Assembly (NCBI GenBank): GCA_964057225.1
Contig: OZ059899.1
Coordinates: forward strand, 10,850,001-10,914,000
Length of the DNA: 64,000 nucleotides
Reading direction: 5' to 3'
Source of the DNA: Auanema rhodensis
Taxonomy: Eukaryota; Animalia; Nematoda
How positions within the stretch are numbered: position 1 is the stretch's first letter; the number at the start of each line of letters is the position of its first letter. Positions 51,441 through 55,800 of this stretch are shown one piece after another. The notes below the pieces were generated by a model. The model was not told where the DNA came from. It made no database searches and worked only from the letters and a program-made list of their open reading frames with translations. Position numbers and translations under genes: made by a program.

Positions 51441-52793
51441 TTGAGAGAAGAAGGTGATTCCTCTTCTTCTTCTCATTCTTCTTCTCTAACAATTAGAACG
51501 AGAAGTAAAAGCAGAAAGGCCATCACTGAGGAAACACCTCGGGCACCTACTACAGTACGAAATAGATCACCAAGTCGGTGGGCCGCTGCTATAACTAAAG
51601 CTTTTGAAAGAAAAATGACTCCTACCTCTCCATCTCCTAATTCTAATGTTGCTCCACCCTCTAGAAATATGGCAACTATTTTAAATTGCCATCTCTGTCC
51701 CAGGTATGACGGCTCTCGTAGCTTTCGTTCTTTTGTTGAATCTTTAAATAGATTTTTTAATGTTATGAATCTAAGTTTACCTGAGAGACTATTAATTTTA
51801 CCTCTTCTTTTGGAATCAAATGAAACAGCTCTCTCCTTGTATAATAGTATTCCTAGTGGCATAAGAACTAATGGCCCATGGATTGTTTTGATGGATCAGC
51901 TCACTGAGCTTTTAGCGCCTAAAACAGATAAAAATTTCACCATAGCGCTTATTCATCGAATACAACAAGGAGATAAATCTGTTCTCGATTTTAGTATGGA
52001 ATTAGAGAGAATGGCAAGCACCATAATGTCACCAATGGATCCCGAGCGGGAACCAATGTTGAAAACGGCATTTTTAAATGGTTTAAAAGAGGAACTGGGT
52101 ATTGCGGTTTTAACTAAAAACCCCGCCACTTATGAACAAGCTAAGAAATTAGCTAGGTTTGAAGAAGGCGTTCGTAATAGCTTCATGAAAAGAAATGAAG
52201 ACACCAGCACCTTGAAGGAGCTCATAAATGCTTTACAACATAAATTAAGCTTTAGTGAAGAAAGAGAAAGAAGTAGGAATAATAATAATAATAAAAATTA
52301 TAAAAATAATAAAAATAATAAAAAAAATAATAACTGGACTCAGCACAATAATGGCTCTAATGATTATGAGCGAGAGAGAGAGCGACCTTCTGCCGTACGT
52401 TATAATAATAATAACTCGCAGAACGGGAATATGAATAGGCGTCCTAACCCGGGAAACCGCCCATTTGCCAATGGCAGAAATGCCAATAGCTCGTCTTGGA
52501 ACCCTAGGCCTAGTTCCCCAAGAAGACAAAGACCATCAGCCAATGGGAATGGTAACTCAAGGGTATACAGCGTAGCGACCCCATTCATGCCACCGGTCAC
52601 GTTGTGCCTGACTTTATTGGCACTCTCATGCCTTCCCTTTGGGTCGGCAAAATATCAGATCTGCGCTCAATCTGAAGGGGGTATATTAGTAACACCTCCT
52701 GTGGTCACAGGCTGCCATAAGGCAGAAATTGAAAAGGCTCACAGTGTTGAGGTAGAAATATATCTACCAAAGGCTGAGATAGAGTCATGGTAA
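51441..52793 (+). CDS. gag: B5 Gag + Env signal peptide (premature TAA 52791-52793; first ATG at 51615)
   Basis: Retrotransposon capsid motifs, Asn/Arg-rich region, no CCHC; GAA or AAA in other copies is TAA here. Confidence 0.9.
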   Translation: MREEGDSSSSSHSSSLTIRTRSKSRKAITEETPRAPTTVRNRSPSRWAAAITKAFERKMTPTSPSPNSNVAPPSRNMATILNCHLCPRYDGSRSFRSFVESLNRFFNVMNLSLPERLLILPLLLESNETALSLYNSIPSGIRTNGPWIVLMDQLTELLAPKTDKNFTIALIHRIQQGDKSVLDFSMELERMASTIMSPMDPEREPMLKTAFLNGLKEELGIAVLTKNPATYEQAKKLARFEEGVRNSFMKRNEDTSTLKELINALQHKLSFSEERERSRNNNNNKNYKNNKNNKKNNNWTQHNNGSNDYERERERPSAVRYNNNNSQNGNMNRRPNPGNRPFANGRNANSSSWNPRPSSPRRQRPSANGNGNSRVYSVATPFMPPVTLCLTLLALSCLPFGSAKYQICAQSEGGILVTPPVVTGCHKAEIEKAHSVEVEIYLPKAEIESW

Positions 52794-52808
52794 GCATGGA
52801 AATGCTAT

Positions 52809-55800
52809 GTGAAAAAGTATAAAAGCTGTGTGAGAGATTTCATGTTTTTGAGAGATCGTAACACCACATTCTCTCATATTGAAACAGTAGATAAGAAAGA
52901 TTGTGTTCGAGCACATAGAAATCGTATGTGGAATGATAAAATCATGAATGCCCAACAGCATTCAGTTTTTGAAACACCATTAAACGAGCATAATCCAACT
53001 CGCTCTTGGTCCACTGAAGAATGTGTAGAAATTGAACAATTTGTATTGAAGCGAGGGATAATAACTAGATTGAAAGAAGATCACATTGTATCAGACTTAT
53101 TTATAAATACTGATAATTGTAAAGGAAATGAAGGGTTTTGTGCAACTGGTGAAGGTGCAGTTATCTGGCAACCACCTATCCCATCAGTTGTCTGTCACTA
53201 TCAAAAACTTGGCCCCTTCTCCGCCATGTTGGGTGATCATATTCTTCTAGTTCACTCTATTGAAAGCGCTTTTGTTCTCCAAAATCATTCCACATCCGCT
53301 CACGTTCAATCTTGTTTCGAATTCGCTGTTTTTGAATCATCTTCTGAGGCAATTATCCGATTCACAGCATATCCCCGTGTTTATAATTTGCTTGATCTTT
53401 CCAATACTTTGCTTAATGCTGATAGACGCAGAAATAAACGTAATGCATTACCTCAAAAACATCGCTCTTTCAGTGATGATTATCTTTTTGTTAATGCGAA
53501 ATCCCAACCATATGCGTTTCCATTTCTAAGACCTACTTTCATTTTTGGATCTGCATCTATCACTAAGTTTTACGCAAAATATATGAGATATGCAGCTACA
53601 TCATCTTATGAGAGTTTGCTCCAATTCGCGATAGATAATCCACTGTTCATTGACACAATTGTTAGTTTAGGATTGACAAAAGATCACATAACTAACTGGG
53701 CAAAGTCTAATAATTTCAAAGATCCCAATCTTTTGATTTTACAATGTATGGGTATAGAGGAAATTAAACTGGCTACTAGACAGATGATTAATAGCATGAA
53801 ATTGGATGATCTTATCACTCAAGTAGCTCGTCGTATAGAAGTTCCTCGGTTAAAAAGATCTTTGATGAAATCTACAACATCCATAGAAGATTTCTTTCGA
53901 GGAATGGCTCACGCAGTAGTATATCAAGCCACAATTCTTGATGGTACACAAACAGTTCCATCAATTGAACAGTTGGCAAGAGCCTTATATCCATCTATAT
54001 TACCACGCAGTGGAAATATGAATCAATCTGAAATTATTGCAACTGCTCAAGGCATGTTATTCATGATCCAACAACAATCGGGAAAAGAACAAATATCTCG
54101 TGACATGCAAGTCAGTCGACAACAAAAAGCTGATGCTACTGTTAGAAATAACCAAGAGCAAGATTTAGCAATTATATCCAAGCTGCCTGACTATCACAAC
54201 CTTTATACAAAGAATAGTACAGCATATTATGGATTTCCTCCACAGTCCATCGAATACCCACAGGAAAATCCTAAATTCAATAAAACAGAAATTTTAGAAT
54301 TCATAAGTTGGGTTAAAACTCAAATCACAACTGATAAAAATATGGTACAGCATACTACTGTAACCCCAATAACTGCCACCAAAACTACAATTCGTAGTTT
54401 AACAACTCCTACCCCTAATGCGTACGAGAGAGGTCGAGAGTTGTATGTAGCAGAAGTATATGACAATGTTCTCCACAAATCAAAGCATAAAACTAAAACG
54501 ATAATAGATAATAAGTTGAATTATGGGTTTGAGAAAGCGCGTCTCTCCATAATTGACGAATTTCATCAACAGTTTCATACCATCTGTAAATCTCAAATGG
54601 AAACTGTAAAAAGCTGGCAAGCTATATTACGTATACATCCTACAATAGGAGTAAGAGCTATGCTTCAGCGGGATGATATCGTTGCCCGATTTGTTGGAAG
54701 AAATGTTTTAAAAATAACAACTTGTCAGGAAATAGAACCACATTTCATTTATCGTAATCATTCTTACAATGATAAATGTTATGCAGAGACCCCTGTTTTA
54801 ACACACGATAAACAATTATTCTTTGCTCCTATCGATAGCTACGATTTGAGCACTGAAGGACATGAGATCAATTGTGAACACAAAGAGACAGAGATTTGGT
54901 ATGAAAATGGAACATGGAGAGATTATAAAGGTGACACACATAAAGTAGATAGTATTCATTCAGAAAAACATGATCATTATGCTGAATTGAGTAAACTTCG
55001 ATTCACAGGGCGGAATTTGTTTGAAAATTCGACTGAAAAATCCTTAGCCCTATCTATTGGATTAACTTATGGTTATAGTTTATCTACTTCACCTCACCAT
55101 GATCTTCTCCGCGTAATTTCTCGTTCACGTGATTGGCCTCAAATTTCCTCTTTCATCTTCAAAGGAAGTAAACTTATAAGAGATGCCAGGAAAATTGTTT
55201 TCTCCAATTGGGATCTGTTCATTGACTTTTGTATAGGTTCAATTGAACGAACACTCATTACCATCGGTTGTATAACTCTGATATTATGTCTAATGATAGC
55301 ATTATATTTCACTATAAAATGTTATCTCTCCCCTACTTCTATGTTAAAAATAAACCATATCATGTTGAGCCCAACAGCTCCACCACTTGAGGGAGATGAG
55401 ATTCATGAAACAGTTAGTGATGAATTGATGCGGAGCTATTTTCCCACCATCATAACTTACATTCCTTTAGCCATACCTTTTGTATGTCACACAACAACAA
55501 AGAAAAATGGACACATGTTACCGTTTGTTCATATTGACATTGCAGGTAGAGGACTGTTAGCATTATGGGATTCTGGAGCTACGGTCTCATATATTCCGTT
55601 CTCCACATTAGCATATATTGGAAGACAATATTTTACAAAATATTCTAAATCTGCATCCACTGCAAATGGATCAGAGTTTCGCTTTGTGGGAAAATGCAAG
55701 TTAGATGTGGGTATAGCAGGTTACCAAGTGGAACACGAATTTTTAATATCTGAAGACAATGACTGTCCAGGACAAATGTTACTTGGTACTGATTTTATGC

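What the first reader, a model, noticed from the sequence alone, without database searches (positions are those of the whole stretch)
52650..55316. Env looks like a class III fusogen (herpes gB / chuvirus G type)
Seen in both families: helix followed by IHPTIGVRAMLQRDDIVARFVGRNVLKITTC (A: INPTIGIRTMLHRQDISAKFVGEHLIYVMPC), then KCYAETPV / KCYLETPV, with conserved Cys spacing in the N-terminal half. By recall this resembles the gB segment NP...VSARMLGDVMAVSTC and related chuvirus glycoproteins, not retroviral SU/TM or baculovirus F. Inference: env captured from an unrelated virus.
Basis: partly seen in the sequence, partly recalled or inferred. Interest (0 to 1): 0.85.

Follow-up and report, generated by a model that had tools for sequence, protein, structure and literature searches.

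The report
Nematode retroelement gB-type envelope protein
This is the envelope gene of a young retrovirus-like jumping gene, likely from a roundworm, and it is predicted to fold like the herpesvirus gB membrane-fusion protein; that kind of element is already published, and the unusual extra here is a roughly 350-residue insert of unknown fold in the middle of the protein.

Summary
52650-55316 is the env part of a gag-env-pol frame in a 10.1-kb Ty3/gypsy LTR element (five copies in the window, plus a second family). A family profile hits herpes gB (E 3.7e-17) and rabies G in the PDB. The AlphaFold model's ten best structural matches are all class III: gB, rhabdovirus G, thogotovirus Gp. The core models as a coiled-coil trimer. 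This copy has an in-frame stop at 52791-52793. [quoted passage not shown] 'Captured from a virus' is plausible, but it is old, not recent: env and RT group with the same Caenorhabditis relative, and direction was not tested. Two extras that I did not find in the papers I could read: (1) a ~350-aa insert behind the furin site, with a helical domain lacking any fold match, where other lineages carry unrelated inserts; (2) a GT-AG joint removing gag and env, present in DNA and putative RNA runs.

The parts
49909..50288 (+). 5' LTR of family B element (380 bp); 4-bp target duplication at 49905-49908 and 60035-60038
   Evidence: 379 of 380 identical to the 3' LTR
50289..50300 (+). primer-binding site, tRNA-Gln type
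   Evidence: same 12-mer as the Gln PBS of Clat_errantivirus_4 and Ctro_errantivirus_1 in PMC13524379 supp1
51369..55470 (+). GT-AG bounded stretch (4102 nt, all of gag and env) that is skipped in contigs of runs X12, X14 and X1
   Evidence: table 5; site sequences; sites kept in the four window copies that hold them
51615..52589 (+). gag (capsid-like), counted from the first ATG; the frame is open from 51294
   Evidence: Pfam Retrotrans_gag E 2.3e-4 and Ty3_capsid E 2.7e-3, both under cut-off
52590..52649 (+). predicted internal signal peptide between Gag and Env
   Evidence: hydropathy; present in 59 of 65 relatives against 1 of 57 control windows
52650..53429 (+). env N-terminal half: gB domains I/II-like, with two hydrophobic loops (about 52836-52856 and 52998-53018), predicted fusion loops
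52791..52793 (+). in-frame stop codon private to this copy
53430..53441 (+). furin-like site RNKR (family A: RQKR)
   Evidence: lies where KSHV gB has its basic loop
53442..54494 (+). ~350-aa insert: predicted helical domain (about 53559-54077), then helices and a Thr/Pro-rich linker
   Evidence: shared with family A, P0001 and P0009; model pTM 0.55, pLDDT about 70-84 in the core; no fold match
   Evidence: Pfam Glycoprotein_B E 3.1e-4; trimer model
55251..55316 (+). transmembrane helix
   Evidence: hydropathy peak; present in 43 of 43 relatives that have a protease motif behind env
55515..59048 (+). pol: protease, reverse transcriptase, RNase H, integrase, in the same frame as env
   Evidence: Pfam
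59655..60034 (+). 3' LTR, preceded by a purine tract
41773..46542 (-). another family B copy, with an uninterrupted gag-env-protease frame and most of pol deleted; its env was the query for searches and folds
957..3566 (+). env of family A (5' end deleted), 27% identical to family B env
   Evidence: Pfam Monjiviricetes_fusion E 6.9e-16, 57.8 bits against cut-off 27

Best explanation
This is the env gene of a GAG-ENV-POL Ty3/gypsy LTR retrotransposon, likely of a nematode, and it encodes a protein predicted to be a class III (gB/rhabdovirus-G-type) fusogen that would let particles enter neighbouring cells, although this copy is broken by a stop codon. Shown: one reading frame gag-signal-env-TM-protease-RT-RNase H-integrase; young copies with near-identical LTRs and target duplications. 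Predicted: the gB-type fold, two fusion loops, a trimeric coiled coil. Inferred mechanism: a single polyprotein is threaded through the ER membrane twice. Signal peptidase frees Env from Gag, the ectodomain lies in the lumen, and Pol hangs on Env's cytosolic tail until the protease releases it. Furin cuts behind domain II, leaving a ~350-aa insert at the tip of the membrane-anchored half, most likely as an exposed attachment or shielding module. The env-pol pairing is old and inherited within nematode elements; its ultimate source is likely a negative-strand RNA virus glycoprotein or a shared ancestor.
For: A profile of 109 sequences against the PDB gives 73 matches at E<=10; of the 60 shown, 54 are herpes gB (best KSHV ORF8, E 3.7e-17), 5 are 'Glycoprotein'/RABV-G rows matching the N-terminal half (E 3.6e-7 to 2.8e-3) and 1 is a Gag-like capsid. 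Foldseek PDB: 118 matches at E<=0.001, and all 41 rows shown are gB. BFVD: 199 matches at E<=0.001, led by nyamivirus and rhabdo-like G. VIA-align: rows 1-10 are all class III. Trimer of residues 600-800: score 0.72, best control 0.00, contacts agree in at least 67%, pLDDT at least 69; the mark was reached by 20 of 30 solved pairs and 1 of 23 single chains (eukaryotes 17 of 29 and 0 of 30). Because gB trimers are solved, the pass may be from memory. Topology: signal-like stretch in 59 of 65, TM in 43 of 43; env lies before RT in 29 of 29 relatives with an RT hit. Host: all 18 of the 30 looked-up relatives that carry an organism name are nematode. A, B and P0003 (C. japonica) group in both the RT tree (99/100) and the env tree (100/99).
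Against: Whole-model TM-scores are low (0.16-0.19 by query in the PDB), pTM is 0.53, and 294 of 867 residues have pLDDT under 50. Family B alone stays under Pfam's gB cut-off (20.7 against 43 bits) and does not hit Monjiviricetes_fusion. No fusion, cleavage or particle data exist. Three of the four window copies that hold env carry a stop in it. A spliced route to Pol is possible. A furin-like motif is present in only 44 of 96 proteins. The env tree is poorly resolved: 2 of 16 inner branches are starred.
Confidence: 0.85

Rival explanations
1. Same fusogen, but Pol is made from a spliced RNA that skips gag and env, as in foamy viruses. The env would then be dispensable in cis, and env-stop copies could still move inside the cell.
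For: Joint 51366->55469, skipping 4102 nt with GT..AG ends, in 3 of 4 runs laid: X12 and X14 (guessed RNA) and X1 (DNA). The donor and a T-rich acceptor 45 nt before the protease Met look like splice sites and are kept in four window copies. The three nonsense breaks seen in family B all lie in env.
Against: The joined form stands in DNA too, and X14 shows a second deletion just behind it (55496->58788), so it is most simply a short non-autonomous derivative of a once-spliced RNA. No in-frame ATG lies upstream of the joint, and two out-of-frame ATGs precede the in-frame one. A Met before the protease occurs in 24 of 43 relatives, against about 48% expected by chance. No such joint was listed for family A, whose window copy lacks the 5' part. 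Each stop is in one copy only.
Confidence: 0.2
2. The env was captured recently and separately by this lineage from an exogenous virus (herpes-, chu- or nyamivirus).
For: The best viral fold matches are Nyamiviridae and rhabdo-like G, and Pfam Monjiviricetes_fusion passes its cut-off in family A. Captures are documented for BEL/Pao elements (PMC7642597 abstract; PMC9094657 passage on Tas).
Against: Identity to viral proteins is only 7-14% in the rows shown, while nematode retroelement relatives are 15-33% identical. Env and RT share the same nearest relative. PMC13524379 (sections 5, 6, 9) finds such env across animal phyla.
Confidence: 0.1
3. The fusogen is ordinary and the insert is only an expanded, tolerated spacer or glycan shield in the furin loop, with no binding role.
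For: The distance between the two halves ranges from 7 to 504 aa in 96 proteins (median 42.5); 33 inserts of 100 aa or more fall into 19 unrelated groups, many rich in Ser/Thr/Pro.
Against: The insert core aligns across four proteins at about 20% identity with 18 invariant positions, folds with pTM 0.55 from four sequences, and shows 11 silent against 6 replacement changes between two B copies (the other two pairs, 2:4 and 1:1, are uninformative).
Confidence: 0.35
4. The protein is not a class III fusogen (a class I/II fusogen or a captured host protein).
For: Single-sequence searches found nothing, and the global TM-scores are low.
Against: Profile and three fold searches agree on class III.
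Confidence: 0.01

Closest known systems
Nematode GAG-ENV-POL Ty3/gypsy 'errantiviruses' with HSV/gB-type ENV (Chary and Hayashi, eLife 2026, PMC13524379)
   Same: Gene order, gB-type env between signal and TM, tRNA-Gln PBS with the same 12-mer as two Caenorhabditis elements, young multi-copy insertions. A cluster mate of hit P0042 lies on a 12,007-bp C. brenneri contig, the contig size listed for Cbre_errantivirus_2. Their screen also counted ENV-POL hits in two Auanema assemblies, the genus of my closest hits.
   Different: None of the 36 nematode entries in their supp1 is from Auanema. The main text has no mention of splicing, polyprotein, mucin or extra domains; 'extra domain' is noted only for two Branchiopoda entries. 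Their figures could not be seen.
Nematode endogenous retroviruses of Sacco et al. 2022 (J Gen Virol 103:1739; title seen in a reference list; paper not held; content recalled)
   Same: Non-canonical env-before-pol metavirus of nematodes with an RNA-virus-like glycoprotein; by recall a continuous gag-env-pro-pol frame and Nyamiviridae-like env, which fits.
   Different: Could not be checked. Whether they describe the insert or a spliced RNA is unknown to me.
Herpesvirus gB (PF00606; KSHV 9cu4, HSV-1 2gum)
   Same: Domain I/II, central helix, domain IV crown, basic loop before the helix, trimer.
   Different: 7-11% identity in the Foldseek rows; ~350-aa insert in the basic loop; made within a retroelement polyprotein; no gH/gL-like partner genes seen in the element.
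Nyamivirus, chuvirus and rhabdovirus G (PF24664 Monjiviricetes_fusion)
   Same: Best viral fold matches; family A passes the Pfam cut-off; the N-terminal half matches rabies and Chandipura G.
   Different: Only 7-14% identity; encoded in an LTR element.
Anakin (mosquito Pao with chuvirus G, PMC7642597) and Tas (Ascaris, gB-like env, PMC9094657)
   Same: A class III-type env in an LTR retroelement.
   Different: Those are BEL/Pao elements; this one is Ty3/gypsy with env between gag and pol.

Membership tests
Class III viral fusion proteins | Elongated beta fusion domain inserted in a PH-like domain | tested here: met
Class III viral fusion proteins | Two internal hydrophobic fusion loops | tested here: met
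   Loops at hairpin tips of the model; aromatic residue in 63 of 66 and 66 of 69 relatives. Membrane insertion itself is not tested.
Class III viral fusion proteins | Long central helix forming a trimeric coiled coil, followed by a beta crown | tested here: met
Class III viral fusion proteins | Signal peptide, conserved disulphide cysteines, single C-terminal TM | tested here: met
   (hydropathy only; no dedicated signal predictor)
Class III viral fusion proteins | Mediates membrane fusion | not testable with these tools
   needs a bench assay; this copy is interrupted by a stop
Herpesvirus gB family (PF00606) | Score above the Pfam gathering cut-off | tested here: not met
   20.7 and 28.6 bits against 43: works like gB, not filed as a gB
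Monjiviricetes_fusion (PF24664) | Score above the Pfam gathering cut-off | tested here: inconclusive
   family A 57.8 against 27 bits; family B no hit at E<=1
Nematode GAG-ENV-POL errantivirus (Ty3/gypsy) | LTRs, PBS, purine tract, target duplication | tested here: met
Nematode GAG-ENV-POL errantivirus (Ty3/gypsy) | Order gag-env-PR-RT-RH-IN with gypsy-type domains | tested here: met
Nematode GAG-ENV-POL errantivirus (Ty3/gypsy) | RT groups with nematode env-pol elements | tested here: met
   with C. japonica P0003 at 99/100, inside an 11-row group at 96/97 that holds the named nematode rows; no outside gypsy or BEL/Pao references were in the tree
Nematode GAG-ENV-POL errantivirus (Ty3/gypsy) | Nematode host | tested here: inconclusive
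   inferred from relatives (18 of 18 organism-named hits are nematode); no genome is held
Nematode GAG-ENV-POL errantivirus (Ty3/gypsy) | Cysteine-bridge type (C1a/C1d/C2a/C2c) | not tested
   defined only in figures that could not be read

The most novel reading that the evidence does not exclude
Nematode gag-env-pol elements use the furin loop of their class III fusogen as a cargo slot: different lineages carry unrelated 100-500-residue modules there, and in this lineage it is a folded helical domain of no known fold on a Thr/Pro-rich stalk that serves as the attachment head, doing the job that gD or gH/gL do for herpes gB. The same element also splices out gag and env to give a foamy-virus-like pol RNA.
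Probability: 0.25. Interest if true: 0.6.

Novelty: new member of a known kind. Interest (0 to 1): 0.27.

Why it matters
The headline, a gB-type fusogen in a gypsy element, is real but published, so it adds one more member. What could matter is the insert. PMC13524379 (section 9) says the entry mechanism of gB-type errantiviruses is unknown because they lack herpes gD/gH/gL. A conserved, lineage-specific domain at the furin loop is a concrete candidate for an attachment module and can be studied as an isolated protein. The GT-AG joint bears on how a gag-env-pol frame supplies Pol and on how short non-autonomous derivatives arise.

Full report
Observation. The stretch 52650-55316 lies inside a 10.1-kb LTR element (49909-60034) whose LTRs differ at 1 of 380 bases and which is flanked by a 4-bp target duplication. 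Four more copies of this family (B) lie on the minus strand, three with internal deletions, and a second family (A) spans 692-19415. Both quoted motifs are present in B (54633, 54774) and in A, and the two envs are 27% identical. The frame runs gag, hydrophobic stretch, env, transmembrane helix, protease, RT, RNase H, integrase. In this copy it is cut once, by a stop at 52791-52793; two other copies have their own stop elsewhere in env. For searches and folds I used the copy at 41773-46542 (-), whose env frame is uninterrupted and whose pol is deleted.

Class III test by sequence. Pfam gives Glycoprotein_B for both families below the cut-off (20.7 and 28.6 against 43 bits) and Monjiviricetes_fusion above it for A only (E 6.9e-16). 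Single-sequence searches were blank. An A+B profile found 421 proteins at E<=0.001, of which 150 were listed. I looked up 30 of them; 18 carry an organism name and all 18 are nematodes, the closest from Auanema sp. JU1783. I aligned 107 of the 150 with A and B, leaving out most of the longest and some fragments; 14 of 16 ectodomain cysteines are kept in 73-100% of rows. That profile matches 73 PDB sequences at E<=10. Of the 60 shown, 54 are herpes gB (best E 3.7e-17), 5 are glycoprotein rows matching the N-terminal half (one named RABV-G; two others I recall as rabies G), and 1 is a Gag-like capsid.

How it most likely works. A signal-like stretch precedes env in 59 of 65 relatives (control 1 of 57), and a TM lies between env and protease in 43 of 43. 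Env precedes RT in 29 of 29 relatives with an RT hit, though the RT profile came from A and B. The simplest reading (inferred) is a polyprotein that crosses the ER membrane twice: Gag cytosolic, Env lumenal, Pol on the Env tail. Furin would cut at RNKR (53430), and the trimer would fuse particle and cell membranes. None of these steps was assayed.

The insert. The distance between the N- and C-terminal halves has a median of 42.5 aa in 96 proteins with both halves (56 at or under 60 aa, 30 at 150 or more, 12 at 300 or more); it is 371 in B and 399 in A. These lengths are extrapolated from profile ends, and some relatives are gene predictions. The 33 inserts of 100 aa or more fall into 19 groups without detectable similarity to each other. 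The B insert aligns with A, P0001 and P0009 at 19-23%. It folds as a helical domain (about residues 40-212, pLDDT mostly 70-84, pTM 0.55, four sequences) with no convincing match. It sits where KSHV gB has its basic loop. One pair of B copies shows 11 silent and 6 replacement changes in it; two other pairs are uninformative. I read it as an exposed attachment or shielding module; which of the two is open.

The joint. Contigs of three of four runs laid (two guessed RNA, one DNA) join 51366 to 55469 with GT..AG ends, removing gag and env and ending 45 nt before the protease Met. It exists as DNA, a second deletion follows in X14, no in-frame ATG precedes it, and the Met is not conserved (24 of 43). 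So it shows that a spliced RNA likely existed and was copied into DNA, not that Pol is made this way. Family A gave no such joint.

Origin. In trees of 19 rows (12 of the 29 RT-bearing relatives were left out for partial RT or env), A, B and the C. japonica protein P0003 group in both RT (99/100) and env (100/99); the rest of the env tree is poorly resolved and no viral outgroup was included. The env is therefore inherited within nematode elements, and the direction of any capture is untested.

Comparison with what is known. PMC13524379 (seen: abstract, found passages, section 6 part 1, section 9 part 1, part of the references, supp1 nematode rows, supp4 parts 1-2, rows of supp5 and supp6; figures not readable) reports that nematode, bryozoan and flatworm errantiviruses carry HSV/gB-type ENV in GAG-ENV-POL order, and credits Sacco et al. 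2022 for the nematode case. The PBS here equals that of two of their Caenorhabditis elements. Sacco 2022 is not held; its content is recalled only. PMC7642597 (abstract) and PMC9094657 (passages) give BEL/Pao parallels. The scan itself noted a flatworm case (e1-8577679), and a note on another piece of this genome also calls the host a roundworm (e1-10290918). The main text of PMC13524379 has no hit for splicing, polyprotein, mucin or extra domain, and searches found nothing on the insert or a spliced pol; unseen figures and Sacco 2022 may cover them.

Verdict. Observation confirmed, class III reading supported, new member of a known kind. Interest 0.27, carried by the insert and the spliced joint rather than by the gB likeness.

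Noticed in passing
window 84-63460: All elements sit in a tandem array of a ~666-bp unit that carries a tRNA-Ile(AAT) gene (20 genes). Insertion points fall at different places in the unit, four within ~135 bp of the spacer and one inside the tRNA gene.
   Followed up: partly
window 51369-55470 and 55496-58788: A GT-AG joint removing gag and env, plus a second deletion removing most of pol, point to a short non-autonomous derivative in the host genome; its contig depth in run X1 is 781 against about 310-360 over env, which the tool says is no copy number.
   Followed up: partly
window LTR ends, e.g. 50288, 60034, 19415: LTRs of both families begin TGT and end ACG rather than the usual CA, with 4-bp target duplications.
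   Followed up: no
window 52791, 26368 (-), 12237 (-): Three family B copies each carry one private stop, all inside env, while gag and pol of the two full-length copies are open. Too few to tell from chance.
   Followed up: partly
window 692-19415: Family A element is broken: deletion from the 5' LTR into env, frameshift between protease and RT, and a B copy inserted in integrase. It has an extra 243-codon open frame (18115-18846) after pol with no Pfam match.
   Followed up: no
window 51294-51614: The gag frame is open for 107 Ser/Arg-rich codons upstream of the first ATG, behind a possible splice acceptor near 51308; the true start may lie upstream.
   Followed up: partly
window 30732-31475 (-) and 62035-63243 (-): A transposase-like open frame (IS1595/Merlin-like by recall, not searched) inside a B copy, and a non-LTR-type RT fragment (Pfam RVT_1) inside the tRNA array.
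   Followed up: no
window about 55455-55470: A Tyr-x-Pro motif about 35-40 residues before the protease aspartate recurs in many relatives; it may be a sorting signal on the Env tail.
   Followed up: no
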